A stretch of DNA of 64,000 bases from a virus, in the IMG/VR virus record IMGVR_UViG_3300036985_002546, positions 7,812 to 71,811 of that record. One strand, written 5' to 3'. Positions 130-56,165 of this stretch are shown here, piece after piece. The position numbers were made by a program, and so were the translations under genes. The notes under the pieces are model-generated. The model did not search any database and had not been told where the DNA came from. It saw nothing but the letters and a program-made list of their open reading frames with translations. The first letter of the stretch is position 1. Every line of letters starts with the position of its first letter.

Positions 130-1116
130 TTATAGCATGTTTGTAGAACCGTCCCAAGGCAAAATTAAGTCATTAGTATAAACCCATTCTTTTGAAGGTG
201 TAGAATCAAATTGGACACCACGCATCAATCCAGGATCCCCAAAGTACATATCATAAGTTTCTCCCCAGATACCTCGTAATGGTGGCAAATCACAAATATA
301 AACTATCGGCCAATACTCTCGTACTCCTGTTAAATCGTTTACTAATTGACCTGTACCTCTTTCAATTATTGAACTTGAAACTACAAATGGTGTAGCCATG
401 TACAATAAACCGGAAGTTAATGACGAACTTGGTTTAAAATTTAACCTTGCTGTATCGTTCCAATCTTGTACCCGCGCTCCAGAAGTTGTGGTAGATGATG
501 AAGCTCTAAAACCCATAACCCAAGGAGTTGTCCAACCAGATATTGCGTTCTTTGGTTTATCAGCAATTAAAACAGTAACTGGATAGAGATTGTTGGTAAC
601 CAGTACACGAGTACAAGCACCATCAGTACTTTGCATGCAGTGTACGCGGTATAATTGGGTAGAGGATAAATTGTCACCCCACACGGTATTACTTAGAACC
701 ACGATCTCATCTGTAGCTGTAGGTCTAGCAGAAGTACTACCATTGGTACCTCCGTTGGCAGTACCAAATCCATTAGCTGGTGATAGTACAATAGTCATGT
801 TTACAGATGATGCATTACTTAAATCAAAGCATAGCTCAAATTTAGTAGCTAACCCTGTTTGACGTAAAACAATCCACGAATGAGCACCGGTTCCCCACAC
901 TAAATTTGTGGAAGTGCTCCAACGGTCTGTACCATCCATACTAGATGCAGAGCTATTGGAACTACCAGAAACCGTCCACGGTAGTGTGCTAAATCCTATT
1001 AAAGATGTTTTAATTTGCAGCATAGTTTGCTGCGTATCAGCTAAAACAGTACCACTAGCTCCTTTAGTATTGTTTACTGAATATTGCCATGTTTTATCTT
1101 TTGTAGGAAGTGCCAT
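130..1116 (-). CDS. Type-A array paralog (328 aa), putative virion appendage/receptor-binding protein
   Basis: Shared core SGSS..S.MDG.DRW / AHSWIVLRQ / SP.NGFGT.NGGT.GST.ARPTATDE; closest to 8376..9362; lies downstream of tail fibre genes. Confidence 0.75.
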   Translation of the reverse strand: MALPTKDKTWQYSVNNTKGASGTVLADTQQTMLQIKTSLIGFSTLPWTVSGSSNSSASSMDGTDRWSTSTNLVWGTGAHSWIVLRQTGLATKFELCFDLSNASSVNMTIVLSPANGFGTANGGTNGSTSARPTATDEIVVLSNTVWGDNLSSTQLYRVHCMQSTDGACTRVLVTNNLYPVTVLIADKPKNAISGWTTPWVMGFRASSSTTTSGARVQDWNDTARLNFKPSSSLTSGLLYMATPFVVSSSIIERGTGQLVNDLTGVREYWPIVYICDLPPLRGIWGETYDMYFGDPGLMRGVQFDSTPSKEWVYTNDLILPWDGSTNML

Positions 1117-1137
1117 AAGTACTCCAATTAAACTTTG

Positions 1138-1422
1138 TTAGCTAATCCGTTTTGATACAATTACGTTCGATAGTGATCCTGGTCCTGTGTAAATTAGACC
1201 TGTGTAATCAACAAATGATGCAGTCCAGTAAACTGTAGTAGATAAAGTATTATCAAAACCTCTCATACGATATATACGTTTACCTGTTGCACCAGCTGTT
1301 GATCCGCTTAATGCTCCTGTGGTTTCTTTCTCAGAAACACTTGTATAGCTACTACTAGAACCGCTTACAACAGCTCCACTTGTGTTTATCTGACCAGCTA
1401 ACAATTCAACAGCTATAGACAT
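1138..1422 (-). CDS. Type-C small array paralog (94 aa)
   Basis: YRMRG(F/Y)D.TL...VYW...YTGPG.L.N motif shared with 3454..3741 and 7071..7367. Confidence 0.8.
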   Translation of the reverse strand: MSIAVELLAGQINTSGAVVSGSSSSYTSVSEKETTGALSGSTAGATGKRIYRMRGFDNTLSTTVYWTASFVDYTGLIYTGPGSLSNVIVSKRIS

Positions 1423-1428
1423 TGTTCT

Positions 1429-2430
1429 TTATCCCATTCGTTTGATACTCGAACCGTCCCACGGAACTATAAGTGTTCCAAACTGTGCCCAAGACAGTGC
1501 TGAACCCGACATATAATAATCCATTGGAATCGTATTACTGTTAGCGTTAGTACCCCAATATAGATCATAAGCTGTACCAAATAAACCTAAGACGCTTGTA
1601 CTCGTACTTGCGAGTGTGATAGCAAAGAATGGCCATTCACCGCTTAAATCATGTGAAACTAGACCACCTGCGTGTTTTCCGAAAACAGAAGACACACAAC
1701 CTGGTGTAGCAAAATAGAATAAACCAGCTGTTGTGCTGTGCTTAAAGTTTACGTTAGCGTTTGTATTGTTATAATACGTATAATCTAACTGAGTTGCGGT
1801 AGAGTTTCCAATACCTTTAACCGAAAAATAAGCTTTTGTTCCTGTCCAACCAGACAATGCATTATTTGCATAATCAAACATGAACAACGACACCGGATAC
1901 CCGTTAGCGCAGATAATTACTCGTGTACACTTACCATCTGTGCTTTGCATACAATGTACTATACATGGCGTGTTATTTGCAGATCCAGTAATCCAATCTC
2001 CACCGTTCAGTATAACCATTTCATCTGTGGCCGTAGGTCTAGCAGCCGTACTCCCATCAGTACCACCATTTACAGTACCAAAGCCGTTCACGGGAGAAAC
2101 AACGACTGTAAGTAAATGTGTGTTGACGTTAGCACAGTCAAAACAAATTTCACATTTTGCAGCTAACCCTGTTTGACGTAAGACTATCCAAGAGTGTGGG
2201 TTTCCCGCACTGTTCCATTGCAGGTTAGTGGATGTCCATCTATCTGTTCCGTCCATACCAGAGGCAGAACTGTTAGAACTTCCAGACACTGTCCACGGAG
2301 TAGACCCAAATCCCTTTAGTTTATCCTTAATATAATTGAGTATTCGTATACGTGAAGTATCGTAGTTTGCTCCACGCTGGAGTGAGTTAAGATTAAACTG
2401 CCAAGTTTTTACTTTAGATGGTGCTGGCAT
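1429..2430 (-). CDS. Type-B array paralog (333 aa)
   Basis: Shared core plus B-type features EWPF, YDLYWG, WAQFG..I.PW.G; shares GWTGTKA with 7371..8366. Confidence 0.75.
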   Translation of the reverse strand: MPAPSKVKTWQFNLNSLQRGANYDTSRIRILNYIKDKLKGFGSTPWTVSGSSNSSASGMDGTDRWTSTNLQWNSAGNPHSWIVLRQTGLAAKCEICFDCANVNTHLLTVVVSPVNGFGTVNGGTDGSTAARPTATDEMVILNGGDWITGSANNTPCIVHCMQSTDGKCTRVIICANGYPVSLFMFDYANNALSGWTGTKAYFSVKGIGNSTATQLDYTYYNNTNANVNFKHSTTAGLFYFATPGCVSSVFGKHAGGLVSHDLSGEWPFFAITLASTSTSVLGLFGTAYDLYWGTNANSNTIPMDYYMSGSALSWAQFGTLIVPWDGSSIKRMG

Positions 2431-2454
2431 TGTGTTTACTCATATTATAACGGA

Positions 2455-3450
2455 CTACCACCAAATCGTTGAATTAATATATGTCCAAAAGTCTTTTACA
2501 TATGTCCATTTAGTATTATCTGTAGCAGTTGTAGGTAAGGTTATACCAGGATCACCAAAATATAAATCATGTAATTCTCCCCAAACACCACGTGTTCCGA
2601 CAGTATTGCTTATTAAAGTAATAGGATTAAAAGCTCTATTGGATGAGACTGAATTTGCGTTTTGTCCAGCAGTAGTTTCCATCCAAGTAGTGGTATTAAC
2701 AAATGCTGCACCCATAAATAAGTTACCTATAGGTGAAGTCGTTGTTGGTTGAAAATATAACAATGCTGTATCGTTCCAATCTAAGATTCTAGCTGACGAT
2801 GTAGAAGTTCCACCAGAACCTTTAATACCTGCGATCCATGGAGTAGTCCAACTTGATAGTGGATTTTTAGGTACAGCAAAAATAACAGTTGTAACCGGGT
2901 AGTTGTTAGTAATTACGTGCGTATGTGTACAAGTACCATCAGTACTTAGTGAAACACACACTTTATAACCATATGTGCTAAACGTACCAGGGTTATCATT
3001 CCATACAACGTTATTATGAATGATTATTTCGTCAGTAGCTGTCGGTCTAGCAGATGTACTACCGTCAGTACCCCCGTTAACTGTCCCAAATCCGTTATTT
3101 GGAGACACAACAACAGTCATAATACTGCTGTTAGAGTTACTTAAATCAAAACATACCTCAAACTTTGTCGCTATGGTGGGTTGACGTAGTACAATCCACG
3201 AATGAGCACCAGTACCCCAAATTAAATCTACGTAATTGGGCCATCTGTCTGTACTATCCATACCTGACGCAGAACTACTTGAACTACCAGATACCGTCCA
3301 TGGATTTGTTGGGGAGGTTTCTTGCCCACGAAAAGCACGTTTGACAAGCCACAATATCGCTTGGTTATCTGTAAGTTTGCTGCCATTAGGACCTATTTGA
3401 CCTTGGTTGGCTACACTTTGCCAAGTTTTTGTTGTAGATGGTGATGCCAT
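2455..3450 (-). CDS. Type-A array paralog (331 aa)
   Basis: Shared core plus A-type features PW.AG, AR..DW, GVWGE..DLYFG. Confidence 0.75.
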   Translation of the reverse strand: MASPSTTKTWQSVANQGQIGPNGSKLTDNQAILWLVKRAFRGQETSPTNPWTVSGSSSSSASGMDSTDRWPNYVDLIWGTGAHSWIVLRQPTIATKFEVCFDLSNSNSSIMTVVVSPNNGFGTVNGGTDGSTSARPTATDEIIIHNNVVWNDNPGTFSTYGYKVCVSLSTDGTCTHTHVITNNYPVTTVIFAVPKNPLSSWTTPWIAGIKGSGGTSTSSARILDWNDTALLYFQPTTTSPIGNLFMGAAFVNTTTWMETTAGQNANSVSSNRAFNPITLISNTVGTRGVWGELHDLYFGDPGITLPTTATDNTKWTYVKDFWTYINSTIWW

Positions 3451-3453
3451 GTA

Positions 3454-3741
3454 TTAACTCAGTATGTGTACAATTGTTATATTTGTTAATGGTCCTGGTC
3501 CTGTGTATTGCGCACCAGTACTATCTACTGACGTGGCTGTCCAGTATACCGTTGTAGTAAGTGTAGTATCATAACCACGCATTCTATAGTTATTTGTAGG
3601 TGTTACTAACGCTGTACCACTAAATGCTGCTGTGATTTTATTGTTGGGTTGAGGTAGTAATTCACCCGATACTCCTGCCAAAGCAGTAAGTGAAGTAGTC
3701 AGTTGACCTGCAACAATGTTATCAATAGCAAATGTCGCCAT
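3454..3741 (-). CDS. Type-C small array paralog (95 aa)
   Basis: YRMRGYDTTL...VYW...QYTGPGPL.NI. Confidence 0.8.
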   Translation of the reverse strand: MATFAIDNIVAGQLTTSLTALAGVSGELLPQPNNKITAAFSGTALVTPTNNYRMRGYDTTLTTTVYWTATSVDSTGAQYTGPGPLTNITIVHILS

Positions 3742-3744
3742 GTG

Positions 3745-4716
3745 TTAACCTAGTTTCTTTAGCGAAGATCCATCCCACGGAAGAATAAGGTCACCAAATT
3801 GTGTCCACGTGTATCCAGGATAGTCTACTTTACCCTGGAAGTTCTCACTACCCCAGTATAAATCATATGGAGTACCAAAGATCCCGCATCCATTAGTTCC
3901 GTTCCCAGCTAGACTTATAGGCATAAACGGCCACTCATTAGTAAAACTTGCAGTTTTACTACCACCTGGATTACGCCCGTAGGGTGCTGACGAATAACCC
4001 AAAGTAGCTAACCACACAGGAATATAAAAGGAATTTGCTTTTACAATTAAGTTTGCATTTTCGTTAAGTGTGGGGTAAGAAACAGCATTTCCAAGTTGAG
4101 AATATACACCAAACAATAGCCTTGGTGTATTCCAACCAGTTATTGCATTCTTTGGTGTATCAAATACCAATATATTGATAGGATACCCGTTAGAACAAAC
4201 AATTACTCTAGTACACGTACCGTCAGTACTTTGCATACAGTGTACTACGTATGCTGGTGATGCGTCACTACCACCCCAAGATGTACCAGGAAGTGTGTAC
4301 GAGTCAGTTGCTGTAGGTCTAGCAGTAGTACTACCGTTGGTGCCTCCGTTTGCTGTACCAAAGCCGTTTACAGGAGAAATTAAAAAGGTAGCTGTGTATG
4401 AAGAACTAGCTGAGTTACAATCAATGCACACTTCAAATTTAGTATTTAGTCCTGTCTGACGTAAAACGATCCATGAATGAGCACTACCATCGTTGTTATG
4501 TAATATTTTTGTGTAGTCAGTCCATCTATCAGTTCCATCCATACCTGATGTAGCACCATCTGAAGATCCTGAAATTGTCCAAGGGTTAGTTCCGAATCCT
4601 TTTAATGCGTTTTTAATTTGTAATGCCATTAAGTTTAGTCTATAAACTGGCGTAGAATCATAACATATGGCGTTTACATTGAATTGCCAGGTTTTAGATC
4701 TTGATGGGACACTCAT
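3745..4716 (-). CDS. Type-B array paralog (323 aa)
   Basis: Shared core plus EWPF, GIFGTPYDLYWG, WTQFG.LILPWDG. Confidence 0.75.
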   Translation of the reverse strand: MSVPSRSKTWQFNVNAICYDSTPVYRLNLMALQIKNALKGFGTNPWTISGSSDGATSGMDGTDRWTDYTKILHNNDGSAHSWIVLRQTGLNTKFEVCIDCNSASSSYTATFLISPVNGFGTANGGTNGSTTARPTATDSYTLPGTSWGGSDASPAYVVHCMQSTDGTCTRVIVCSNGYPINILVFDTPKNAITGWNTPRLLFGVYSQLGNAVSYPTLNENANLIVKANSFYIPVWLATLGYSSAPYGRNPGGSKTASFTNEWPFMPISLAGNGTNGCGIFGTPYDLYWGSENFQGKVDYPGYTWTQFGDLILPWDGSSLKKLG

Positions 4717-4734
4717 GTTAATTAGACCTTTTAT

Positions 4735-5748
4735 TTACCGCCAAACTTGTGAGGGCATAACAAACATCATTAAGTCAATAAACATAAAGGACGAAGAATC
4801 TGTAGGTATATCTCCATGTCCTGCAAAATTGTCTGTAAAATATAAATCGTACACCTCACCCCACACACCATTTGTACCTGCTGTATCACTAATTAATGCA
4901 ATAGGATAAATAGTGTAGTTTCCGCTAATTTTATTTGAATTTGGACTTATACTATAGTAGGCGTCAAAGAGTCCTCTAGTTCCTGTAAATGTTGTAGCCA
5001 TAAACAACTTGCCTACAGGAGAGGTAGTTGTGGGTTTAAAAAATAGTTTATCGTACCTATTATAATGATTATACGTATCATACTGATTTTTTAGTACACC
5101 CGAACCAGGTGATAAGGATGATGTTATTCCTGCTATCCATGGATTTGTCCAAGAGGATATAGGATTCTGTGGTTTTTCAATAAAAAACGCCATTACAGCA
5201 CACGTGGCATATGTGTACGATGTAGTTAGGAATATACGCACACAATCCAAGGTATCAGTACACACAGCGTTAATATAATAGCCAGATGTATTATAAAAAC
5301 TACCGATATTATCAGCCCAAGTAGCATTATTTACCACTACAATTTCATCTGTAGCTGTAGGTCTAGCAGAAGTACTTCCATCGGTACCACCATTTGCAGT
5401 ACCAAAACCGTTATTAGGTGAAATTACTATTGTAATAGTACTACAGGTAGTACTACTGACTAAATCAAAACATATCTCAAATTTACTTGTTATAGCTGTT
5501 TGACGTCGAACGATCCAGGAATGTGCTCCGGTACCCCACACTAAATTAGTGTAAGTAGACCAACGATTGCTTCCGTCCATACCTGACGTAGAGCTGTTAG
5601 AACTACCAGAGCACGTCCACCCGCTGTCTGATAACGCACTACTAATCTCAAAGATTACTTTTTGACCATTACTTAGCGCATCAGTACCTTTAATATTATT
5701 GGTAGTACCTCTACGGATCCAATTTTTACTTAACGATGGTGATGCCAT
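4735..5748 (-). CDS. Type-A array paralog (337 aa)
   Basis: Shared core; NP.SSWT.PWIAGI and PTTTSP.G.LFM shared with 2455..3450. Confidence 0.75.
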   Translation of the reverse strand: MASPSLSKNWIRRGTTNNIKGTDALSNGQKVIFEISSALSDSGWTCSGSSNSSTSGMDGSNRWSTYTNLVWGTGAHSWIVRRQTAITSKFEICFDLVSSTTCSTITIVISPNNGFGTANGGTDGSTSARPTATDEIVVVNNATWADNIGSFYNTSGYYINAVCTDTLDCVRIFLTTSYTYATCAVMAFFIEKPQNPISSWTNPWIAGITSSLSPGSGVLKNQYDTYNHYNRYDKLFFKPTTTSPVGKLFMATTFTGTRGLFDAYYSISPNSNKISGNYTIYPIALISDTAGTNGVWGEVYDLYFTDNFAGHGDIPTDSSSFMFIDLMMFVMPSQVWR

Positions 5749-5759
5749 AAAAAATTTTA

Positions 5760-5972
5760 TTAATCTATATAATTAGGAGTCAAGAATTGAAGACCATCTG
5801 CTGTTTGAGTGCCTATTAGCGTAATTTCATACACACTGCGATAGATCGCATCAGGTAAATTTATGTCACGCCATGCTTCAAATTTACTTTGAGCTTGTTC
5901 TGGGCTCTCTGCACGAACCATCGTGCAATTCATAGATAAATCACGAACCGAATAAATATTGTATGTTTCCAT
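5760..5972 (-). CDS. Type-E small protein (70 aa), unknown function
   Basis: Abuts the D gene; VRAE...A.SKFE.W...NLPDA..RSV shared with the uncalled frame at 9372..9572. Confidence 0.8.
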   Translation of the reverse strand: METYNIYSVRDLSMNCTMVRAESPEQAQSKFEAWRDINLPDAIYRSVYEITLIGTQTADGLQFLTPNYID

Positions 5973-6959
5973 TTAGTTCACCGTGTGTGTGATTTGTATG
6001 TAAGATCCACCCAATTCAACAGAATCAGCTGGATTTGATGGACTTGTAACCCAAACTTCTACTTGATACACTTTGGAAGACGTTTTTATATTTCCTGAAC
6101 TGCTTCCTATAGTAAGAGCTGCGTCAGAGAATGCTGGTGTAGTGCTTGTAAATGTTAACGTAGCTACAGTTTCTGAATCTGTTACATTAGTCAATCTAAC
6201 GTTACCTGTAGCCGTGTACCCGATAGCAGCTACAGCTCTAAACCTCATAGTTTTGGTAGTTCCAGTGATGCTATAATCAGATGGATTCAGTTCAAATTGG
6301 TGTACGATAAGGTGTGTATCACTGTTGTACGACGTACTAGATCCACACGACAATGGAATAGTTACCTTGTCACCTGTTGCACCAATTCCACCGCTAGCGG
6401 TGGAAGCTATAGTTAAAGTTTCATCAGCACCAGCACTACCTTTAGTTAAGGTAACGTTAGTACCAGCTACTAGTTTTCCTAAAAGATATCCAGGAGTTGT
6501 GTCTCCAGACGAGACAGTAGATTTTGCTTTAGCTGAATTTAACGTTCCGAGAGTAGAATCTGATTGACGCATAAACATCGTCATATCAGGTTGCCACCCC
6601 TTAATATTTCCACCTGCGTTATACTCCAGTTTTTCATCATATCCTGGAATACGTGCGCCAGTAGTTGCTAATGGCACAGCTATAACAACTACGGAGGTGT
6701 CAGAACCGTTTACTATACATCTTACACGGTATGAACCAGTGTGTGATGGTGAGAAGGTTGCTGTTGGTGTTGATGCACCGCTTAAAGATGATGTTGAACC
6801 AGTAGGAATATCTACTAAAGTCCATGCATACGCTGCACCACTGTTACCAGGTTCAGTGTCTGTTAAAGTAATAGTTTCATAGAGCACTAAGTCATTACGG
6901 CCTACACCAGTTACATCACCGGACGTACTGCCGCTACTTTTAATTATCGGTGTCGCCAT
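5973..6959 (-). CDS. Type-D protein: N-terminal PKD/Ig-like domain, fibre-like linker, C-terminal beta domain
   Basis: Y.WT..D.P..S...LSGASTPTATFSP..TGSYRV is a PKD-like signature; one DTT.GYL.GKL unit; paralog of 10765..11880. Confidence 0.7.
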   Translation of the reverse strand: MATPIIKSSGSTSGDVTGVGRNDLVLYETITLTDTEPGNSGAAYAWTLVDIPTGSTSSLSGASTPTATFSPSHTGSYRVRCIVNGSDTSVVVIAVPLATTGARIPGYDEKLEYNAGGNIKGWQPDMTMFMRQSDSTLGTLNSAKAKSTVSSGDTTPGYLLGKLVAGTNVTLTKGSAGADETLTIASTASGGIGATGDKVTIPLSCGSSTSYNSDTHLIVHQFELNPSDYSITGTTKTMRFRAVAAIGYTATGNVRLTNVTDSETVATLTFTSTTPAFSDAALTIGSSSGNIKTSSKVYQVEVWVTSPSNPADSVELGGSYIQITHTVN

Positions 6960-7023
6960 GTGTATTTTATTTCCTGTTAGTTGGTTGTGGCGATTTCAAA
7001 GATACTTTGTAATATACTAGTAA

Positions 7024-7052
7024 ATAGTACACCAATCGTGTTTCTTAGTCTA
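7024..7052 (-). promoter_or_regulatory. Candidate sigma70-type promoter in front of the second D-E-(ABC)n module
   Basis: TAGACT-N17-TACTAT in the largest intergenic gap (6960..7070) between array genes. Confidence 0.4.
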
Positions 7053-7070
7053 GAAGTAGTTCAAAGATTT

Positions 7071-7367
7071 TCAATGACCTACAACGTTATACACCACTAT
7101 ATTTGATAGTGGTCCCGGTCCTGTATACTGACTGCCTGCTGTGTCAATTGTTACAGCTAGCCAGTATACATTGTACCCCAAGGTAGTATCATATCCTCTC
7201 ATTCTATACACCAGCGAACCTCCTGACCCTATGGTAGAGCCGCTTATAGCTGCTGATGATGTAGAAGATACTTGTCCGGACATAAAATCACCACCAGCAC
7301 CATCTTGCACGCCACCAAATGTTGCGTCTATTTGGTTTGATACATAGTCACCATTAACATCGGCCAT
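7071..7367 (-). CDS. Type-C small array paralog (98 aa)
   Basis: YRMRGYDTTL...VYW...QYTGPGPLSNI. Confidence 0.8.
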   Translation of the reverse strand: MADVNGDYVSNQIDATFGGVQDGAGGDFMSGQVSSTSSAAISGSTIGSGGSLVYRMRGYDTTLGYNVYWLAVTIDTAGSQYTGPGPLSNIVVYNVVGH

Positions 7368-7370
7368 AGA

Positions 7371-8366
7371 TTATCCTATTCGCTGTGCAGCAGTACCATT
7401 CCATGGAAAAATCATGTTACCAAACTGTGCCCATGAAAATGGCACAGATGATAAGTCATAACTCACCATAGAGTTGGGTGTTGTAGAACCCCAATACAGG
7501 TCATACACTGTACCCCATTGTCCTCTAAGTGTGGAAGTTTCGCACCACAGCCCCATAGGACAAAAAGGCCATTCTTTTGTTATATCTTGCACAATGATCC
7601 CACCAGGCTGTCTTGGAAATGCTGAAGATCCATATCCTGGTGTTGAGAGGTAGAAGTTGCCGTTTGTGGTATTGTGTTTAAAAAACAATGTACTACTTGC
7701 GTCATTATAATTACCAAAAGTTAGTTGATTAGAAGCAGAACCTACACCCCAAAAACCATAAAAAGCCTTGGTTCCTGTCCATCCAGACAACCCATTATTT
7801 ACTGCATCAAAAATCATTAATGTACAAGGTACACCGCTAACACAAATAACAGCACGTGTACAAGCTCCATCAGAACTCTGCATTACGTGTACAGCTAGTG
7901 TTATGTTAGTAGCTCCGTTAACCCACCCATTTGCGTTAGATGTTGCTAGTACAGTTACCTCATCAGTAGCTGTAGGTCTAGCAGAAGTACTACCGTTGGT
8001 TCCCCCGTTTGCTGTCCCAAATCCATTCACAGGAGAAACCACAACGTTCATAATTGAGTCGGTTGCTGAAGCTAGGTCGAAGCACACTTCAAATTTAGTG
8101 GCCACACCTGTTTGACGTAAAACAATCCATGAATGTGCACCTGAACCCCAAACTAAATTTGTATACGCACTCCATCTATCTGTACCGTCCATACTTGATG
8201 CTGAACTACTAGAACTTCCGGATACAGTCCAAGGTGTAGAACCGAATCCGATCATGGATGATTTTATTTGGTATAATACGTTTTGGTGTAGTATTAACGT
8301 ACTCGTACCTGTTTGTAGGGAGTTTACGTTAAATTGCCAAGTTTTGGTTTTAGTTGGTGCGGGCAT
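7371..8366 (-). CDS. Type-B array paralog (331 aa)
   Basis: Shared core plus B-type C-terminal motifs. Confidence 0.75.
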   Translation of the reverse strand: MPAPTKTKTWQFNVNSLQTGTSTLILHQNVLYQIKSSMIGFGSTPWTVSGSSSSSASSMDGTDRWSAYTNLVWGSGAHSWIVLRQTGVATKFEVCFDLASATDSIMNVVVSPVNGFGTANGGTNGSTSARPTATDEVTVLATSNANGWVNGATNITLAVHVMQSSDGACTRAVICVSGVPCTLMIFDAVNNGLSGWTGTKAFYGFWGVGSASNQLTFGNYNDASSTLFFKHNTTNGNFYLSTPGYGSSAFPRQPGGIIVQDITKEWPFCPMGLWCETSTLRGQWGTVYDLYWGSTTPNSMVSYDLSSVPFSWAQFGNMIFPWNGTAAQRIG

Positions 8367-8375
8367 AATTAGTCC

Positions 8376-9362
8376 TTACTGCATGGCATTGGCGCCATCC
8401 CATGGAAGAATCATATCACTGACAAATACCCATTCATGTGATGGAGATGAATCAAATCCTGTACCTCTAGCCACTCCTGTAGACCCAAAATAAAGATCAT
8501 ACATTTCACCCCACATACCCCTCATTCCAGTAGATTCACTAATAACTGTAATAGGGAAGAATGGCCAATTACCTGACACATCGTTGGCTACAGTTCCTGC
8601 GGTTCTAACAGCTAATGTTTGTGTCAATACCATAGGTATAGATAGATAAGCACTTCCAACGGTTAACGTTGTTTTTGGTTGTAGTTTCATATTAGCTGCG
8701 GTAATCCAATCAGCTATTCTTGCTCCACTGGTAGTTGCTGATGCTGATGCTTTAAATCCAACTAACCACGGAGCATCCCAACCTGTTACTGCATTTTTTG
8801 GTCGATCTATGATCCAAACAGAAACAGGGTATAGGTTATTTGTAACTAAAATTCGTGTACATTGTCCGTCTGTACTCTGCATACAATGTACTTTATACGA
8901 TTGCCCAGAACCTGGTGCGTCATTCCACGTGGTATTACTTAAAACTACATATTCATCTGTGGCTGTAGGTCTTGCGGTAGTGCTACCATCAGTACCACCG
9001 TTTGTGGTACCGAAACCATTTGCAGGAGAAATTACAATTGTTGCTGAGTTAGAACTTGCGTTGGCTAGGTCTATACATAATTCAAATTTAGTTGCCATTC
9101 CGGTTTGACGCATGACAATCCAGGAATGAGCACCAGAGGCCCACACTAGATTTGTATCAGCAGCCCAACGGTTACTTCCGTCCATACCAGAAGCAGAACT
9201 GTCTGAAGAGCCAGAACAGGTCCACGGTTGTGTGCCGAAGGCAGTTAAAGCAACAGGAATCTGACGCATGGCTGCCCTGTTGTCTGTAAGTAAAGTACCG
9301 GAACCGCCTTTAGCTATATTTATTGTGTGTTGCCAAGTTTTTGATTTTGTTGGTAAACCCAT
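8376..9362 (-). CDS. Type-A array paralog (328 aa)
   Basis: Shared core; same length and similar termini as 130..1116; RBS AAGGAG. Confidence 0.75.
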   Translation of the reverse strand: MGLPTKSKTWQHTINIAKGGSGTLLTDNRAAMRQIPVALTAFGTQPWTCSGSSDSSASGMDGSNRWAADTNLVWASGAHSWIVMRQTGMATKFELCIDLANASSNSATIVISPANGFGTTNGGTDGSTTARPTATDEYVVLSNTTWNDAPGSGQSYKVHCMQSTDGQCTRILVTNNLYPVSVWIIDRPKNAVTGWDAPWLVGFKASASATTSGARIADWITAANMKLQPKTTLTVGSAYLSIPMVLTQTLAVRTAGTVANDVSGNWPFFPITVISESTGMRGMWGEMYDLYFGSTGVARGTGFDSSPSHEWVFVSDMILPWDGANAMQ

Positions 9363-9371
9363 TGACTCTCC

Positions 9372-9572
9372 TTAATCTAAGTAGACAGGTGTAATTAGCA
9401 TTTTCTCGCTACTTGGGGGTCCTACTAACCTAACATAATCAACAGATCGACAATCAGCGTCTGGTAAGTTGGCTAGGCACCATTCTTCAAATTTACTCTT
9501 GGCACCTTCTTCGGTCTCCGCTCTAACAAATGTTAGATGTCTTGAGTTGTCAAATACTTCGTATAAATTCGT
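9372..9572 (-). pseudogene. Type-E paralog separated from its ATG by the TnpB insertion; frame intact (66 codons), now beginning with ACG
   Basis: Manual translation (T)NLYEVFDNSRHLTFVRAETEEGAKSKFEEWCLANLPDADCRSVDYVRLVGPPSSEKMLITPVYLD* aligns with 5760..5972; the matching start ATG AAT TTA TA lies at 10763..10753. Confidence 0.75.
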
Positions 9573-10766
9573 GTTTCTACCCTTCTTCCTTATTTATTGT
9601 TGAGTATTTCTTCTGCAAGAGGCAGAACACTCTGCCCAAGTTTGAGTATATTCAAGGAAGAGTTTGTATCTCTGTCGTGTATTGTATTACAATTTGAACA
9701 TACCCATTCTCTTATTCCAAGACCTGCGATACCTTTCGGCCTCGACTCAGGTAGAGTACCACAAGTCGAACAGGTTTGGGTTGTAAATTTTTCGTTGACA
9801 ATTTTGAAATAAGCTTGATGCCTACTGGCTTTATACTCAAGCATAGTTCTAAACTTGTACCAACTTGAATTCATTACACTTTTAGCTAAGTGTGTCTTTG
9901 CAAGTTTGGTAGAGTTTACATTGCCTACGATTATTGTTTTGTTTTCTGCTGCTATTTTATGACTAGCTTTGTGTAAGAAATCCTTTCGTATATTTTTAAT
10001 TTTAGCGTGTATTGCTTTTACTCTTTTTTTATTGTGTGCTCTTTGTGCTACAGCTAATTTCTCTTCGTATTTGTAGTAAGTCTTTGGATTCTCTATCTTT
10101 TCTCCGGTAGACAAGGTAGCGAGTGTCTTTAATCCTAGGTCTATACCTACTTCACCTGTACCTGTAGGTAAATTAGGTACATCTACATACAAACATACAT
10201 ACCACTTACCTTGTGAATCCTCTACAAAACTACCTCCAGTAACTTTGTTTGGAATAGGTCTACGTTTAATTCCAAATAACTTAAAGATATTACCTAGATA
10301 GGATATAGAGTCTGTACCTACTTGTCTAGACTGTTCTTGGAAAGGAATCCAACCTAGAGATTTCTTGGATCCAAAACTAACTCTAAATTTAGGACATTTC
10401 TTGTGTTGATTTCTACTCTGTACAAATTGTTTGCATATACATTTAGATGTCTGTGCGTGTATTCCTAATTCTTTCGAGGTACCTTTTGTTAGAGATCCTA
10501 AATCAAAAAAACTAAGCCAATGTGTATTAGATCCTTGCTTATACAACAATTGTGTTTTCTTTTGTGTAGCTACACAAAAATTCCACACCTGATTTACAGA
10601 AAAAGACATACGTGACAAGATATTAATCTTGTTTTTGTCCTTAATTCTATATTTATAAGTAAGAATCATAGTTATGACTAATATATTAAAACAGTATTAA
10701 TAACGCAGTGTTTACTATACCTTAATTTTCAAAATTTAAACTTACTAGAGCATATAAATTCATGTT
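9562..10766 (-). mobile_element. TnpB-only insertion bounded by a 14-bp imperfect direct repeat
   Basis: TATAAATTCGTGTT (9562..9575) versus TATAAATTCATGTT (10753..10766); no tnpA; interrupts the D-E junction that is intact at 5972/5973. Confidence 0.75.
9590..10669 (-). CDS. tnpB: TnpB RNA-guided endonuclease (IS200/IS605/IS607 family)
   Basis: N-terminal TYKYRI, GIDLGLK (RuvC-I), VNEKFTTQTCSTCG and CSNC zinc finger, HDRDTNS (RuvC-III); GGCAGA-GTGT-TCTGCC hairpin in the 3' end where the omega-RNA is expected. Confidence 0.95.
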   Translation of the reverse strand: MILTYKYRIKDKNKINILSRMSFSVNQVWNFCVATQKKTQLLYKQGSNTHWLSFFDLGSLTKGTSKELGIHAQTSKCICKQFVQSRNQHKKCPKFRVSFGSKKSLGWIPFQEQSRQVGTDSISYLGNIFKLFGIKRRPIPNKVTGGSFVEDSQGKWYVCLYVDVPNLPTGTGEVGIDLGLKTLATLSTGEKIENPKTYYKYEEKLAVAQRAHNKKRVKAIHAKIKNIRKDFLHKASHKIAAENKTIIVGNVNSTKLAKTHLAKSVMNSSWYKFRTMLEYKASRHQAYFKIVNEKFTTQTCSTCGTLPESRPKGIAGLGIREWVCSNCNTIHDRDTNSSLNILKLGQSVLPLAEEILNNK

Positions 10767-11880
10767 AATTTACCGTATTAATGATGCGTATTTCAGCAAC
10801 ACCCAACTCTATAGAATCTAAAGATGATGCTGGACTGTTGACCCATATGTGTACTTCATAGAATTTGGAGGAATTTTTTAAATTACCTGAACTACTTCCT
10901 ATTGTTAGAGTAGAACTTTGTATGCTTAGTGTTGTAGAGCTGAAAGTTAAAGTAGCTACCGTTTCTGAATCTGACACGTTTATTAATCTTACATTTCCGG
11001 TTATTCCACTGTTACCCATTAAACCTGTAGCCCTAAACACAGCTGACATAGTCGTGCCTGCCACAGTAAAATCACTTGGATTAACTTCTATCACACCGAC
11101 TATTAGGTGTGTATCTGAGTAATAACTTTTATTTATTCCGCATAAAATAGGATTAATTAATTTATTAGTCGACGCACCAATACCACCTGCTGTGGAAGCT
11201 ATAGTTAGTGTTTGATCTGTACCTGGAGTACTAGGTGTTAACGTTATATTAGTACCAGCTGCTAGCTTTCCGTAAAGATATCCTAGAGTTGTGTCACTGG
11301 ATGATACAGTTGCCAGACCATCAGAGGAAATTTTTATATTTTCGTTAAAACCTGCATTCTGTTTAGTTAACGTTACTCCATCACCCTCAACTAATTTATC
11401 CCAAAGAAATCCAGATGTTGTGTCATTTGTAGTAATTTTTACTTTATTAGTTCCTACAGTAACTGTAGACAATGCAGCGTCAGTTTGACGCATAAATAAC
11501 GTTTGATCTGTATGCCATCCTTTAGTATTACCATCACCATCATATTGCGTTAATTCGTTATACGCCGGAATCCTTGCGGTAGTATAACTTAATGCAACGG
11601 CAATGATTTCCTCAGACGAAGAAATTCCGTTTACTAAACAATTAACTCTGTAAGATCCCGTAACATCAGGAGAAAATGTCGCGGTAGGTGTTGATGCTCC
11701 TGATAATGAAGCGGTAGAAGTAACTGGAGTATCTAAGAACGTCCAAATGTAGGTAGCGCCTACATTGGCTGTTTCGGCATCTGTAAGTGTTACTGTTTCT
11801 CCAATAATAAGATCTTTTCTGCCGTGTCCAGTGATAGTACCAGAACTAGAACCAGTACTTCTTATTATCGGTGTAGCCAT
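10765..11880 (-). CDS. Type-D protein (371 aa): PKD/Ig-like domain plus two DTT.G.L..KL fibre units
   Basis: Paralog of 5973..6959; directly follows the tail fibre gene. Confidence 0.7.
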   Translation of the reverse strand: MATPIIRSTGSSSGTITGHGRKDLIIGETVTLTDAETANVGATYIWTFLDTPVTSTASLSGASTPTATFSPDVTGSYRVNCLVNGISSSEEIIAVALSYTTARIPAYNELTQYDGDGNTKGWHTDQTLFMRQTDAALSTVTVGTNKVKITTNDTTSGFLWDKLVEGDGVTLTKQNAGFNENIKISSDGLATVSSSDTTLGYLYGKLAAGTNITLTPSTPGTDQTLTIASTAGGIGASTNKLINPILCGINKSYYSDTHLIVGVIEVNPSDFTVAGTTMSAVFRATGLMGNSGITGNVRLINVSDSETVATLTFSSTTLSIQSSTLTIGSSSGNLKNSSKFYEVHIWVNSPASSLDSIELGVAEIRIINTVN

Positions 11881-11895
11881 GGAATTATCTCTAAA

Positions 11896-14800
11896 TTAGA
11901 TGTGTATGTGTGCTCTAAAGTTTAATCCGATATCCGAATATCCGGTAGGTGCCGCAAATGGATTTCCACCTTCTGTGTCTGTGGTAGCTTGTGTTCCAGA
12001 ATCTGCTAAAAATGTCCCGTTCCTTTCTATGGCAAATCCGTCTCCGCTAGTCCAAGTTGCACCACTAACCACAGAGCAGACATTGGCGTATATTATACTG
12101 TGTGATGAACCCCATGTAGTAGGTACTCTAATTCCGTGTGCATATACCCTGTTAGTAGATGCATCTGCACCCCAGTAGCACACGTTACCTATAATTGATC
12201 CTACGACGTACTCTGGACCGCTAGAAGAGGGTACCTGTGATGCATCAATACAACAAGCGTCAGAGTTAGTATAACCTTTATAGATTACTGTATTTCCATT
12301 TATGTTAAACCACTTTTTATTTACAATAATGCCTGCATTGCTAGCAGCATTACCACTGATTAATATAGAATTTCCTGTAATAAAGTTACTTATACCTGCA
12401 ACATTAATACCTTGGTGTGGTGCATCTATGAAATTACCTTTTACAGTTACTTGAGGAGTTAGGGCAATAGTCACACCTGTTACGGTTACAGCAACTGCGC
12501 TAGTATAACTTAATGATATGTTGTTATCATTAATTAGTGTTGACGATAACTCATCGGTAGCAAGAACGTTAACACCCGTTTTTCCTGTATTTATTAAATT
12601 TCCTAATATGGAACAGTTCGATATAGAACCTACTGTATTGATTATTGAAACTGCATTACAGTACGGGTTATTAGAATCAATACTGTTGTTTTTGATAGTA
12701 ATCATATCCACTAATGACGCAGCTGTTAATAAACCTATACCGTGTACTACAACACCATACGGTGACGTGATACCCTTGATTTGGTTATTACTTATAGTTA
12801 TGCTTGTGCTATTTGTATCTAAATTTAAGAGTAAACTACTGATCCCAGTAGCTGTTGCACTAGTGTTACCGATAGTATGTATTTGGTTGTTGTTTTCTGT
12901 GATATTTATTAGCTCTCCCGTCAAGAAAATACCACTACAAGTACTATTAGTAGTTCCTAAACCTGAAGTACCTAAATGATCTATTTGGTTGTTAGATACA
13001 CTAAGTTCATTACATGTATCTGCATAGATACCATAACAAGTAGAATCTACGCCACTAGAGGTTGGATTGATGTTAGTGATTAAATTGTTCGATATAGAAA
13101 CTCGCTCTACTTCTTGTAATTCAATTCCACATGCGTTAGTTGTACCCCATACAGTGTCTAATTGGTTGTTACTGATTATTGTATCAGTTACAGATGGAGC
13201 ACTTATAAGAGAAATGCCTTTTGAGTTAGCAGCAGAAGTTTTTAATGAGTTAATATTGTTGCTACTAATCTCAGTCTTTGTGCATGTACTTTCAATTAAA
13301 ATTCCAGTTAGATTAACACCGAGTGTTGTGGTGGCTCCTATAGAATTGTTTGTGATGTTTGTTTTGGATATATAACTGGATGAAGTTCCATAAATACTGT
13401 TTACACAGTCTGTTATCGTGTTGTTTGCTACAGTACAAGCAGTACTACCATCCAGAATAATACCTTGAGCAGTAGTACTGGATGCCCCAGCTTTACAGAT
13501 TATGGTATTTCCTAACACATCACAGTTTGTTGGTTCGTTGTATAAATAAATACCAGTAGATGTGCCGCCTAAATACACGATATTATTTTGTATTCTACAT
13601 GTATCGGCTTTAGGCATCAATAGGGCATTTACAAACGGAACACCACCACTAAACGGATAGATAAACGTACAGTCTTCAATAGAAATACTTTGGGCACCAC
13701 CTGTAGCATCGGTACTGTTGATATACACTGCATGGTCTATAGCAGTACCAGTACTTGTAGAGCCAAAAATACAATTTCTAAGAGATACGTTAGAAGCTAC
13801 TCCTGCTTTTACAATACAGTCTGATGCGCTTACACCTGTTGATTGTGTAAACTTTACGTTGTCAAATACACAGTCTATTAGTGCTGTAACGTTAATTGGT
13901 TGTGTAGTCGAACCAATTACAACCTGACTAAAAGTTGAACTAGTGTTAAGATTTCCGCCTATACCACCTAAATCACAGTTATATGCGTTTATTTTACCAG
14001 TTCCGATAAAACACGCTGTTAGCGTGCTATAAGATACAGGTGCCCACATTATATTTTCTATTGTTAAGGATGTGGTTCGCGTTAGAGTAGCGGAAGAATG
14101 TGCAGGATTTACAATTGTTCTATTGCGTGATTCACCAACGATATGAATTGGTACTGTTGCTGTTAAACCTGTAGTTAAACTGTAGGTACCGTCTTTTATG
14201 TAGAGCGTTCCTCCACCCCTTGTGTTTAGGTAAGCTACAGCGTTTGTAAACGCTGTATTAACAGATACTGCGTTGGTATTAAAATCACCGAATGTGTTAA
14301 CACCATCACCTATAGAAACAGATACGCTTCTAGACGGGATAACACCACTGGATGGTGAATAGTATCTATTATTAGTTGTAAATGGACCAAGAGGTGGTGC
14401 AGTGTTGCCTAGTGTGGTGTTTTGTGACGCACCAAATTTTAGCTCTCTAATCTGACTTGATAGGTGGTCAATATAGTTTTTAAGTGATTTAAGTTCAGTA
14501 TCTGTACGAGTGTCTCCTACATCATTAGGATCTAGTCCGAGTAAATAACCTGTATTTTCATCCCCTGAAAAGAAGTGTGTTCGTTGGTCTAGTGATCCAG
14601 TTCCCTGTGTAGTAAGAAATACTGAACCAGTAACAGAGCAGCGGCTACCAATTGGGTGTGTGTTGCCTGGTGAGGAACCTAGTGTTAGAATACCATTTTC
14701 CTGATCGTTAGTACTTATTGTGACTGTCTCTGCAAGTCCCGTGCCAGGAGAGAGAACTAATGAAAAAGAATCTACGGGTAATTCTCTGGAGTTGGTAACA

Positions 14801-55961: not shown

Positions 55962-56165
55962 TTAACTTACCCAGCTTTCTTCTACAAGAGGCATAACACT
56001 CTGCCCGGTAGTTTCTGTCTCTACCTTATTTCTGTTTAGCGTTACATTTCTGCTACTCTTACGAGAGTTAAACAGAGAAATATTAGTATTTAGGTTACGT
56101 TGCATAGGTTGCCTACTGGCTGAATAATCCTTTGCAATACTACCTAACACTATTGTATTAGCCAT
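55962..56165 (-). CDS. Small hypothetical protein (start MANTI)
   Basis: ATG overlaps the upstream stop; its own stop abuts the portal ATG. Confidence 0.5.
   Translation of the reverse strand: MANTIVLGSIAKDYSASRQPMQRNLNTNISLFNSRKSSRNVTLNRNKVETETTGQSVMPLVEESWVS

What the first reader, a model, noticed from the sequence alone, without database searches (positions are those of the whole stretch)
9372..10766. TnpA-less TnpB inserted at the start codon of gene E with a 14-bp duplication that nearly rebuilds the start
Seen: after gene D the E start ATG AAT TTA TA runs into foreign DNA and stops after 13 codons. Past tnpB the same 14-mer recurs as AAC ACG AAT TTA TA and continues into an intact E frame preceded by a purine-rich AAGGAAGAAGGG. 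Known: IS200/IS605 transposition makes no target duplication and needs subterminal hairpins, which I cannot see here; TnpB guides derive from the right flank; AT-rich TAMs are typical, and TTTAT lies inside the duplicated word. Inference: this TnpB may behave as an RNA-guided homing endonuclease that cuts empty E alleles of co-infecting phages, with E either rescued by an ACG start or complemented by its paralog at 5760..5972.
Basis: partly seen in the sequence, partly recalled or inferred. Interest (0 to 1): 0.75.

Follow-up and report, generated by a model that had tools for sequence, protein, structure and literature searches.

The report
TnpB transposon behind a phage start codon
A small guide-RNA nuclease transposon sits right behind the start codon of a phage tail-region gene, flanked by an 8-base target duplication, and a related phage still carries the uninterrupted gene that its guide RNA would match.

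Summary
A 1,183-nt tnpB element (9570..10752, minus strand) splits phage gene E directly after its ATG. A contig of another sediment run (X3) joins 9561 to 10753, which is the uninterrupted allele.

Only 8-9 nt of the "14-mer" are duplicated (AATTTATA, plus the G before it). The AACACG part is the element's own right-end tip: it is shared with relatives at other sites, and homology stops exactly after CACG.

Exact 8-nt repeats recur at element ends in relatives. In one complete 117-kb phage record the same inverted-repeat ends and an 8-bp repeat bound a copy encoding an IS1595-family DDE transposase. IS1595 elements usually make 8-bp duplications. So the repeat is best read as a target-site duplication made in trans, not by IS200/IS605 chemistry. 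The window copy itself lacks clear inverted repeats.

The omega-RNA scaffold is conserved (23 of 62 pairs covary). Its guide would be E codons 2-7, so cutting empty alleles is plausible but untested, and the idea is already in print.

Relatives carry an outward ATG eight codons before the right-end tip. Here that codon is ATA, so E is probably poorly translated. A fossil right end at 55938..56008 supplies the portal gene's ATG.

The parts
10765..11880 (-). Gene D (371 aa), tail-region gene upstream of the insertion. Its paralog is 5973..6959.
   Evidence: 51% identity to the paralog; no Pfam or PHROG hit
10761..10763 (-). Original ATG of gene E, now separated from the rest of E. It lies in the position expected for the TAM (…AACATG).
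10753..10760 (-). Left copy of the 8-nt target-site duplication AATTTATA.
   Evidence: the X3 empty allele has one copy
10722..10763 (-). 13-codon ORF from E's ATG into the left end (MNLYALVSLNFEN*). It stops 53 nt before the tnpB ATG.
10670..10752 (-). Left end of the element (83 nt). No hairpin and no significant inverted repeat with the right end.
   Evidence: z +1.0; 92% of shuffles score as well
10685..10720 (-). 36-nt piece of the left end that also lies in another 13.9-kb contig of the source sample, with other flanks.
   Evidence: X1 record 6, 2 other letters; also X2, X3; only one copy in the own record
9590..10669 (-). tnpB (359 aa), intact ORF. D177, E293 and D334 are invariant in relatives. 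The canonical RuvC-II glutamate position holds N250.
9570..9781 (-). Omega-RNA scaffold, overlapping the 3' end of tnpB and the right end. The tip is ...GGGTAGAAACACG.
   Evidence: 62 pairs, 23 with compensatory changes; nhmmer E 6.8e-51
9591..9593 (-). ATA, eight codons before the tip. It sits where 11 relatives carry an outward ATG overlapping the tnpB stop.
9562..9569 (-). Right copy of the 8-nt duplication. It is also the first 8 nt of the predicted guide.
9550..9569 (-). Predicted omega-RNA guide (about 16-20 nt, AATTTATACGAAGTAT...). It equals E codons 2-7.
   Evidence: Position inferred from where family homology ends. The 16-mer has no other match in the window at up to 3 mismatches. 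The length is inferred.
9372..9572 (-). Gene E without its ATG. ACG (9572-9570) stands where ATG stood, and the frame is open to TAA at 9374-9372.
   Evidence: 0 differences from the X3 allele over 9361..9561
5760..5972 (-). Intact paralog E' (70 aa) in the second D'-E'-F' cassette.
55938..56008 (-). Fossil right end (3' part of an omega-RNA scaffold) of the same family. Its internal ATG (55961-55959) is the start codon of the portal gene 53841..55961.
   Evidence: (E 7.9e-6)

Best explanation
The feature is a non-autonomous transposon of 1,183 nt (9570..10752). It carries only tnpB and its omega-RNA.

It belongs to a family found almost only in phage contigs. Canonical members of that family end in 15-30-nt terminal inverted repeats (CATGCTTATCCGG...CCGGATAAGCACG). 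They are often flanked by exact 8-bp target duplications, and they share those ends with an element that encodes an IS1595-family DDE transposase.

The element landed directly behind the ATG of phage gene E and duplicated the next 8 nt (AATTTATA). The look of a 14-bp duplication arises because the element's conserved right tip (...AACACG) happens to resemble the D-E junction (...AACATG).

Because the omega-RNA reads out of the right end, its guide is E codons 2-7. Uninterrupted E alleles carry ...CATG followed by a perfect match. The occupied allele carries CACG in front of the full match, and only an 8-nt match on the left.

Inferred steps:
1. TnpB with this RNA cuts empty alleles of co-infecting relatives but not its own genome.
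2. Recombinational repair then copies the element in, or excludes the rival marker.

E keeps its whole frame but has lost its ATG. The family normally supplies an outward ATG eight codons before the tip, overlapping the tnpB stop. Here that codon is ATA, so E is probably translated weakly, and the paralog E' may cover for it.
For: SHOWN

- Boundaries. In 5 aligned relatives, homology ends exactly after CACG. L013 and L041 share GGGGTAGAAACACG with different flanks. Three small contigs of the source run stop exactly at 9570, and depth rises over the right end.
- Empty allele. X3 record 16 skips 9562..10752. An intact homolog begins MNLYEVFD.
- 8-nt repeats in relatives. Of 33 distinct right-end junctions, 7 have the exact first 8 flank bases again within the 1.44 kb searched upstream. 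About 0.7 such matches are expected by chance at any position. The 7 are the window, L055, L073, L085, two in L096, and L041. Six lie at the left boundary; L041 lies inside tnpB at the start of a tandem partial copy.
- Record G003 (117,459 nt, CheckV 100%). 6 of about 11-12 paired copies have perfect 8-bp repeats.
- Transposase. The 2.25-kb copy L141:8172-10421 has the same ends and the repeat ATCGGGAT. It encodes DDE_Tnp_IS1595 (1.3e-34) plus Zn_ribbon_IS1595 (1e-11).
- IS1595 members are 'usually flanked by 8-bp TSDs' (PMC8101967, passage read).
- Omega-RNA. 62 consensus pairs, 23 with compensatory changes, in 12 sequences.
- TnpB. Matches ISDra2 TnpB at 4.2e-21. D177, E293, D334 and four zinc-finger cysteines are invariant in 24 sequences.
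- Tips. Omega-RNA-bearing copies in G003 have one CATG tip and one CACG tip. The transposase copy has CATG at both.
- Outward ATG. 23 of 36 distinct right ends have an in-frame ATG before any stop. In 11 it lies exactly 8 codons from the tip.
- The portal gene starts at such an ATG inside a fossil right end.

INFERRED: the TAM, self-avoidance, cleavage, homing, and E's expression level.
Against: - The window copy has no significant inverted repeat: left end against reverse-complemented right end scores 6, and 92% of shuffles do as well. Only ATGCT at the tip matches the canonical left end. Its closest relative L013 has neither inverted repeat nor 8-nt repeat.
- No IS1595 transposase is in the own record, nor in five other relatives' records. 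All are incomplete.
- 26 of 33 right-end junctions show no 8-nt repeat, and about half of the G003 copies lack one. I have no tested explanation for these.
- The wider TnpB clade is linked to Y1 transposases: Ralstonia phage Hyacinthe, and a separate IS605 in G003.
- The canonical RuvC-II glutamate is N250 here. Activity rests on a relocated glutamate (E293), inferred from conservation and from Altae-Tran 2023 (PMC10691335, section 8 read). I could not measure distances in the model.
- In G003 the triplet before the repeat varies (GCT, ATG, ATA, ATC, GTT, and ACT, which reads CTC in the element's own orientation). A TAM of NATG therefore rests on 3 tnpB-bearing cases only.
- Over 24 tnpB-bearing junctions, the frame continuing from the tip is the longest ORF in only 9, against 6 and 5 for the other two frames. 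Landing at start codons is recurrent, not a rule.
Confidence: 0.6

Rival explanations
1. An ordinary IS200/IS605 (IS1341-type) element, moved by a Y1 TnpA in trans and inserted 3' of (C)ATG without duplication. On this reading the 8-nt repeat is chance, or left-flank DNA carried along from an earlier site.
For: - Sister-group elements in cultured phages are IS605-like, and one has a tnpA fragment.
- G003 holds a complete Y1 tnpA (4.2e-42).
- L041 carries a tandem extra copy of the last 112 nt, bounded by GCG| and ACG|, as if cut at look-alike sites.
- Many copies lack any repeat.
- The window has no inverted repeats.
Against: - Exact 8-nt repeats recur at element boundaries in independent copies, against about 0.7 chance matches expected anywhere in the searched stretches.
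- The left end has no hairpin.
- Canonical members have long inverted repeats, which Y1 elements lack.
- The Y1 element in G003 does not carry these ends.
- No Y1 gene is in the own record.
Confidence: 0.2
2. One reading: a transposase-free homing element that spreads only by RNA-guided cutting and repair. The duplication would be a repair scar that nearly rebuilds the start, and E would be rescued from ACG.
For: - Empty and occupied alleles coexist in nature, and the guide matches E.
- An SD-like AAGGAAGAAGGG lies 7 nt before the ACG.
- E shows 0 differences from the X3 allele over 201 nt.
Against: - Repeats of the same length occur at unrelated sites, including MITE copies without tnpB.
- The right-end tip, ACG included, is conserved in relatives at other sites, so it was not built at this site.
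- The purine-rich stretch is part of the scaffold and is also present in L013.
- Copies about 90% alike sit at different start codons in backbones about 98% alike, which points to separate insertions.
Confidence: 0.1
3. A decaying, immobile remnant. The left end is degenerate, both translational couplings are lost, and TnpB may be inactive (N250). On this reading the locus is a neutral scar and E is on its way to loss.
For: - No inverted repeat.
- The host-ATG ORF stops 53 nt before tnpB.
- ATA stands in place of the outward ATG.
- The canonical glutamate is absent.
- A fossil of the same family lies elsewhere in the window.
Against: - The tnpB ORF is intact over 359 aa, with all clade-invariant residues.
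- The scaffold keeps its pairs, partly through compensatory changes.
- The 8-nt repeat is still perfect, and E is unchanged relative to X3, which argues for a recent event.
- N or D at position 250 is the rule in the whole clade.
Confidence: 0.1

Closest known systems
IS200/IS605-family tnpB-only elements (IS1341 group) with TnpB/omega-RNA, e.g. ISDra2
   Same: - TnpB with OrfB_IS605 and TNB domains, alignable to ISDra2 TnpB.
- Structured RNA overlapping the 3' end of tnpB, with the guide taken from the right flank.
- No transposase in cis.
   Different: - An 8-bp target duplication is present.
- No subterminal hairpin at the left end.
- Canonical relatives have terminal inverted repeats.
- The RuvC-II glutamate is relocated.
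- The right-end tip differs by one base from the sequence left of the target.
IS1595-family insertion sequences and their non-autonomous derivatives (MITEs)
   Same: - 8-bp target duplications, and inverted-repeat ends in relatives.
- A copy with the same ends encodes DDE_Tnp_IS1595 plus its zinc ribbon.
   Different: - The cargo is tnpB and an omega-RNA, or the omega-RNA alone in the MITEs.
- The window copy lacks recognisable inverted repeats and any transposase.
- I found no paper linking IS1595 with TnpB: search 'IS1595' + 'TnpB' gave 9 papers, none on this link by title or abstract.
- Altae-Tran 2023 reports DDE-associated TnpBs with inverted repeats, but its main text names only IS630. 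Its supplements were not readable here.
Transposon homing by TnpB (Meers et al.; plasmid IS gene drive PMC11870625; 'non-restorative homing' in review PMC13565253)
   Same: A guide that matches the vacant site, occupied and vacant alleles in related genomes, and a predicted cut-and-copy.
   Different: - The setting is a phage tail-gene cassette.
- The vacant allele is seen in a natural population rather than made in the laboratory.
- No cleavage data exist here.
Free-standing homing endonucleases of T-even phages (SegF, SegB; marker exclusion)
   Same: Works alike in principle: a nuclease gene wedged between conserved phage genes that would cut the rival's allele (review passages).
   Different: RNA-guided rather than protein-guided. 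Self is told from non-self by the interruption and by one base at the tip.
IStrons (group I intron + IS605/IS607 tnpB)
   Same: A tnpB element placed so that the interrupted gene can still be expressed.
   Different: - No intron: 0 Rfam matches at E up to 1 in 9000..11200.
- Any rescue here would be at translation (outward start codon), not at splicing.

Membership tests
TnpB RNA-guided nuclease | OrfB_IS605 / TNB (zinc-finger) domains and homology to characterised TnpB | tested here: met
   Pfam 7.5e-18 and 9.8e-22. ISDra2 TnpB chains 4.2e-21. C300, C303, C324 and C327 are invariant.
TnpB RNA-guided nuclease | RuvC D-E-D catalytic triad | tested here: inconclusive
   D177 and D334 align with the ISDra2 catalytic aspartates. 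The glutamate position holds N250, and is N, D or H across the clade. An alternative E293 is invariant in 24 sequences, as described for rearranged RuvC-II branches (PMC10691335, section 8). The geometry in the AF2 model (pLDDT 84) could not be measured.
TnpB RNA-guided nuclease | Conserved structured omega-RNA at the 3' end of tnpB, running to the transposon end | tested here: met
   62 pairs, 23 with compensatory changes, 12 sequences. No Rfam family matched.
TnpB RNA-guided nuclease | Guide- and TAM-dependent DNA cleavage | not testable with these tools
   Needs expression and a cleavage or interference assay.
IS200/IS605 (IS1341 group) | No target-site duplication | tested here: not met
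   8-nt direct repeat at both junctions; the empty allele has one copy.
IS200/IS605 (IS1341 group) | Subterminal hairpins at both ends, no terminal inverted repeats | tested here: not met
   Left-end fold is not better than shuffles (z +1.0 and +0.66). Canonical relatives have 21-nt inverted repeats.
IS200/IS605 (IS1341 group) | Y1 (HUH) TnpA in cis or in the same genome | tested here: not met
   PF01797 is absent from the 71.8-kb record, which is 42% complete, so absence from the phage is not proven.
IS1595 family (non-autonomous derivative) | 8-bp target-site duplication | tested here: met
   AATTTATA twice. The family property is cited from PMC8101967.
IS1595 family (non-autonomous derivative) | Terminal inverted repeats shared with a transposase-bearing copy | tested here: not met
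   Window: no significant inverted repeat. Met only in relatives (L003, L055, L073, G003 copies).
IS1595 family (non-autonomous derivative) | DDE_Tnp_IS1595 transposase available | tested here: not met
   Absent from the own record. Present in G003 inside the same ends.
Homing element (function, not descent) | A vacant allele exists, and the nuclease's specificity matches it but not the occupied allele | tested here: met
   X3 joint 9561->10753, with 0 differences over 9361..9561. The guide 16-mer has no other match in the window at up to 3 mismatches. Self-avoidance through CACG versus CATG is inferred.
IStron / group I intron | Self-splicing intron structure around tnpB | tested here: not met
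   0 Rfam matches at E up to 1 in 9000..11200.

The most novel reading that the evidence does not exclude
This phage-borne family may be a TnpB/omega-RNA cargo riding on IS1595-type ends, built as an in-line translational cassette for sites directly behind start codons.

- The left tip (C-ATG) opens a short leader ORF. With an 8-bp duplication this ORF is in frame with the captured host ATG, and it stops on the tnpB start codon.
- The tnpB stop overlaps an outward ATG that reads eight codons (M-x-x-N-R-I-G/S-T) across the right tip (ACG) into the duplicated codons 2-4 of the host gene.
- The host protein would then still be made, with a short N-terminal extension.
- The right tip CACG would be a dead copy of the TAM.
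- Omega-RNA-only MITEs (12 partial scaffold hits in one 117-kb phage record) would be driven in trans.
- The window holds a young copy at E and a fossil whose outward ATG has become the portal gene's start codon.
Probability: 0.4. Interest if true: 0.75.

Novelty: new variant of a known kind. Interest (0 to 1): 0.6.

Why it matters
TnpB elements are the ancestors of Cas12, and their natural biology has mostly been studied in IS605 and IS607 elements of bacteria.

This locus offers three things:
1. A natural pair of occupied and empty alleles in related phages. That makes RNA-guided homing or marker exclusion between co-infecting phages directly testable.
2. Evidence that a phage-borne TnpB lineage travels on ends that make 8-bp duplications and are shared with an IS1595-type DDE transposase. 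I did not find this link named in print. It also explains a duplication that IS200/IS605 chemistry cannot produce.
3. A possible way for a transposon to sit on a start codon in a tightly packed phage genome without killing the gene. A fossil elsewhere in the window suggests that such an end has supplied the start codon of an essential portal gene.

Compact TnpBs with short TAMs and relocated catalytic residues are also of practical interest as genome editors.

Tried and rejected
- DNA search of 9000..11200 against cultured phages: no match.
- Gene D against IMG/VR: 7 pattern matches, none confirmed.
- Empty site for L005: its left-flank gene has a 48%-identical homolog in G001, but a different gene follows it, so nothing could be compared.
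- Sigma-70 and terminator scan of 9300..10900: 1 promoter-like site inside tnpB against 5.5 expected, and 0 terminators. Nothing at the left end.
- Idea that the last ~50 nt of gene D resemble the right end, which would hint at recombination: local score 11.5, reached by 0.75% of shuffles and 2.7% of random windows. Too weak; dropped.
- Idea that ATG before the repeat is required by the transposase: rejected, because G003 copies have GCT, ATA, ATC, GTT, ACT as well.
- Idea that the family always lands on start codons: rejected as a rule (9, 6 and 5 of 24 junctions for the three frames). It holds for the window's E, X3's F, L048 (a RuvC-like IFVGIDPG reading frame follows a GTG), L055 and L073.
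- Composite element carrying both the transposase and tnpB in G003: not found. The 4.5-kb stretch between two ends holds ordinary phage genes.
- 8-nt repeat for the fossil at 55938: only one match, 2.2 kb away, taken as chance. The TnpB remnant there is 10 aa at E 0.97.
- The X3 left junction at gene F (..GTCAAT + TTTA + tnpB from its fourth codon, with no left end and no ATG) remains unexplained. I could not see the contig itself.
- RNA runs: none hold the stretch, so expression is unknown.
- Supplements of Altae-Tran 2023 (transposon ends, DDE branches) were closed and may already list this association.
Full report
**What is there**

The window is bases 7812-71811 of a 71.8-kb IMG/VR virus record that CheckV rates 42% complete. 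Around the finding all genes lie on the minus strand.

- Gene D (10765..11880) ends in TAA.
- One base later stands ATG (10763-10761), followed by AATTTATA (10760-10753).
- The frame then enters unrelated, AT-rich DNA and stops after 13 codons.
- tnpB follows (9590..10669, 359 aa; Pfam OrfB_IS605 7.5e-18 and Cas12f1-like_TNB 9.8e-22).
- After its TAA comes AAGGAAGAAGGGTAGAAACACG (tip at 9570).
- AATTTATA then appears again (9569-9562) and runs on in frame to 9372.

That frame is 47% identical to the 70-aa paralog at 5760..5972. The paralog follows a D paralog in the same way. A 66-aa protein in the large protein collection is 91% identical and begins MNLYEVFD. So the uninterrupted gene E began ATG AAT TTA TAC GAA.

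The gene upstream of D is a tail-spike-like protein. D, E and the F-like genes have no family hits.

**The empty allele exists**

I laid contigs of four sediment or metagenome runs on 8000..12200. One X3 contig (record 16, 1,558 nt, depth 5.2) joins 9561 to 10753. It skips 1,191 nt, and 9 letters fit either side. That is exactly the element plus one copy of the repeat.

- This contig has 0 differences from the window over 9361..9561, and 17 over 965 nt of gene D.
- The same contig runs on behind E into a tnpB-like sequence: 12 of 107 and 14 of 165 letters differ in the two aligned pieces.
- Another X3 contig (record 15) joins the last 31 nt of a right end to gene F just behind F's ATG.
- So in that relative a copy about 90% alike sits at F's start codon instead of E's. 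The phage backbones are about 98% alike, so I read these as two separate insertions.
- In the likely source run X1, three small contigs cover 9570..9625 and stop exactly at 9570. Depth also rises over the right end. The same right end therefore occurs with other flanks in that sample.

**Where the element ends**

TnpB relatives of 60-66% identity lie in other IMG/VR contigs. Aligned, their homology to the window ends exactly after CACG, and the flanks then differ.

A conserved 34-nt block in the tnpB 3' end found 36 viral loci. An extended pattern found 13 metagenome and 5 genome loci. Two groups appear:

- One group ends ...GGAGGATGTCAA. It includes the cultured Acinetobacter, Salmonella and Ralstonia phage copies, which are intergenic. 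One of them has a Y1 tnpA fragment.
- The window's group ends ...C(A/G)CG. L013 and L041 have the same tip GGGGTAGAAACACG as the window, with other flanks.

Hence AACACG belongs to the element. Only AATTTATA (plus the preceding G) is duplicated.

**Why there is an 8-nt repeat**

IS200/IS605 elements make no duplication, and the window's left end has no hairpin above chance. The same arrangement, however, recurs in relatives.

- Of 33 distinct right-end junctions, 7 have their first 8 flank bases again, exactly, within the 1.44 kb searched upstream. About 0.7 chance matches would be expected anywhere in those stretches.
- The 7 are the window, L055, L073, L085, two copies in L096, and L041. Six lie at the left boundary. 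In L041 the repeat lies inside tnpB, at the start of a tandem partial copy.
- Canonical members are bounded by inverted repeats CATGCTTATCCGGTT...AACCGGATAAGCACG. In L003 these are 21 nt with 2 mismatches, and 0 of 3000 shuffles score as well.

I fetched L096's record whole (G003, 117,459 nt, CheckV 100%).

- It holds about 15 copies of these ends. Most are roughly 240-nt elements made of a left end plus the 3' half of the omega-RNA scaffold.
- An omega-RNA profile finds 4 full and 12 partial hits there.
- Six of about 11-12 paired copies have perfect 8-bp repeats.
- One 2.25-kb copy (L141:8172-10421, repeat ATCGGGAT) encodes a 347-aa protein with DDE_Tnp_IS1595 (1.3e-34) and Zn_ribbon_IS1595 (1e-11).
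- IS1595 members are 'usually flanked by 8-bp TSDs' (PMC8101967, passage read).

The simplest reading is that this TnpB lineage rides on IS1595-type ends and is moved in trans, and that the window's repeat is the resulting target duplication.

Against this:

- The window copy has no significant inverted repeat (92% of shuffles score as well). Only ATGCT at the left tip matches the canonical end.
- L013 has neither feature.
- 26 of 33 junctions lack the repeat.
- No IS1595 gene is in the own record or in five relatives' incomplete records.
- G003 also holds a separate Y1 IS605 without these ends.

**Nuclease and RNA**

TnpB aligns with ISDra2 TnpB (4.2e-21). The two aspartates are kept (D177, D334), but the glutamate position holds N250. 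Across 24-36 clade members that position is N, D or H, while E293 in the next strand is invariant. This matches the 'rearranged RuvC-II' branches, some of them virus-rich, described by Altae-Tran et al. (PMC10691335, section 8 read). The AF2 model is confident (pLDDT 84), but I could not measure distances in it.

The 3' 212 nt fold into a conserved structure: 62 pairs, 23 with compensatory changes, in 12 sequences.

The scaffold ends at 9570, so the guide would be AATTTATACGAAGTAT..., which is E codons 2-7. At up to 3 mismatches this 16-mer has no other match in the window.

- The vacant allele has ...CATG in front of it.
- The occupied allele has CACG in front of the full match, and only 8 matching bases on the left.
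- In G003 every omega-RNA-bearing copy has one CATG tip and one CACG tip. The transposase copy has CATG at both.

I infer that CACG is a TAM-dead version of the tip that prevents self-cutting. With only three tnpB-bearing duplicated cases (CATG, TATG, TATG before the repeat), the TAM remains a guess.

**How the interrupted gene may be fed**

Left end. In 9 of 9 tnpB-bearing canonical left ends, the ORF opened by the tip's ATG stops within 10 nt of the tnpB start. Six of these are ATGA or GTGA overlaps. With an 8-bp duplication behind a host ATG, that leader is in frame with the host start.

Right end. 23 of 36 distinct right ends have an in-frame ATG before any stop. In 11 it lies exactly eight codons from the tip (M-x-x-N-R-I-G/S-T) and overlaps the tnpB stop. 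Ribosomes leaving tnpB could therefore restart and read across the tip into the duplicated codons.

The window copy departs from this on both sides:

- The host-ATG ORF stops 53 nt before tnpB.
- The eighth codon is ATA (9593-9591; I-R-K-K-G-R-N-T-N-L-Y...).

E thus has only ATA or ACG to start from and is probably made at a low level. This is inference.

A second, fossil right end lies at 55938..56008 (profile E 7.9e-6; aligned). Its internal ATG is the annotated start of the portal gene (Phage_portal 1.3e-13, with an intein).

Landing at start codons is recurrent: E, F in X3, L048 before a RuvC-like gene, L055 and L073. It is not a rule: over 24 junctions, the frame continuing from the tip is the longest ORF in 9, against 6 and 5 for the other two frames.

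**Comparison and verdict**

By content this is a tnpB-only element like the IS1341 group. It fails three defining features of IS200/IS605:

- It has a duplication.
- It has no left-end hairpin.
- No Y1 gene is found.

It meets the IS1595 hallmark of an 8-bp duplication, but not the inverted repeats. It works like a homing element on paper.

That concept is published for chromosomes and plasmids, and is listed for coinfected phages in a 2026 review (PMC13565253, passages read; PMC11870625 and the Meers preprint seen as listing and abstract only). The link to IS1595-type ends, the omega-RNA-only MITEs in a phage genome, and the outward start codon are, as far as my searches went, not described.

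Noticed in passing
window 55938..56008 (-) and 53841..55961 (-): A solo, degenerate right end of the same family (3' part of the omega-RNA scaffold, tip ...GAGAAACACG). It lies directly before and over the start of the portal gene, and the gene's ATG and first 8 codons (MATNQRNT) lie inside it. The 72-aa ORF upstream (55962..56180) ends ...GQSVMPLVEESWVS, like a TnpB C-terminus.
   Followed up: partly
window 53841..55961 (-), about residues 190-344: The portal protein carries an intein-like insert (Intein_splicing 2.7e-6, Hint_2 0.0044; both below Pfam's cut-offs).
   Followed up: no
window 10685..10720 (-): A 36-nt piece of the element's left end occurs, with 2 differences and other flanks, in a 13.9-kb contig of the source run at the same depth, and also in X2 and X3. 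It occurs only once in the own record. Its nature (promoter, end remnant, abutted tips) is open.
   Followed up: partly
run X3, contigs laid on window 9358..9569 and 9361..10660: In a phage about 98% alike, a tnpB copy about 90% alike sits between E and F. Its right end abuts F just behind F's ATG. On the left, F's ribosome-binding region is joined straight to tnpB's fourth codon (..GTCAAT+TTTA+ACTTAT..), with no left end and no ATG.
   Followed up: partly
L141-L146 (record G003, 117,459 nt): A complete phage record with about 15 copies of one inverted-repeat family. These are three tnpB copies, one IS1595-transposase copy and about a dozen ~240-nt omega-RNA-only MITEs, several clustered within 6 kb. 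A separate IS605 with Y1 tnpA and a divergent tnpB is also present.
   Followed up: partly
L041:8901-9190 (also L051): The last 112 nt of the element (from just after a GCG inside tnpB to the CACG tip) are repeated in tandem behind the right end. The first scaffold's 'guide' therefore matches tnpB itself. L013 is the same site without the extra copy.
   Followed up: partly
L048:2400-2800: A 5'-truncated copy (last ~110 codons of tnpB plus the scaffold). It sits between ...GGAGGTTAGAAAG GTG and ATT TTC GTC GGC ATC GAC CCA GGC, a RuvC-like N-terminus lacking only its start codon. The tnpB remnant is in frame with that GTG.
   Followed up: no
L005:5000-5235: An AT-rich solo scaffold remnant ending ...CCGGATAGGCACG lies 1.1 kb downstream of the full element in the same contig.
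   Followed up: no
window 130..9362 and 5973..6959 / 10765..11880: The tail region holds two D-E cassettes and at least seven F-like genes of 323-337 aa. They share motifs such as TWQ..N, SG.DG..RW and HSWIV.RQTG (seen in the translations; not formally aligned).
   Followed up: no
window 10778..10794 vs 9594..9610: The last codons of gene D resemble the last codons of tnpB (14 of 17 nt, spacing 1184). Local alignment is only marginally above chance: reached by 0.75% of shuffles and 2.7% of random windows.
   Followed up: yes
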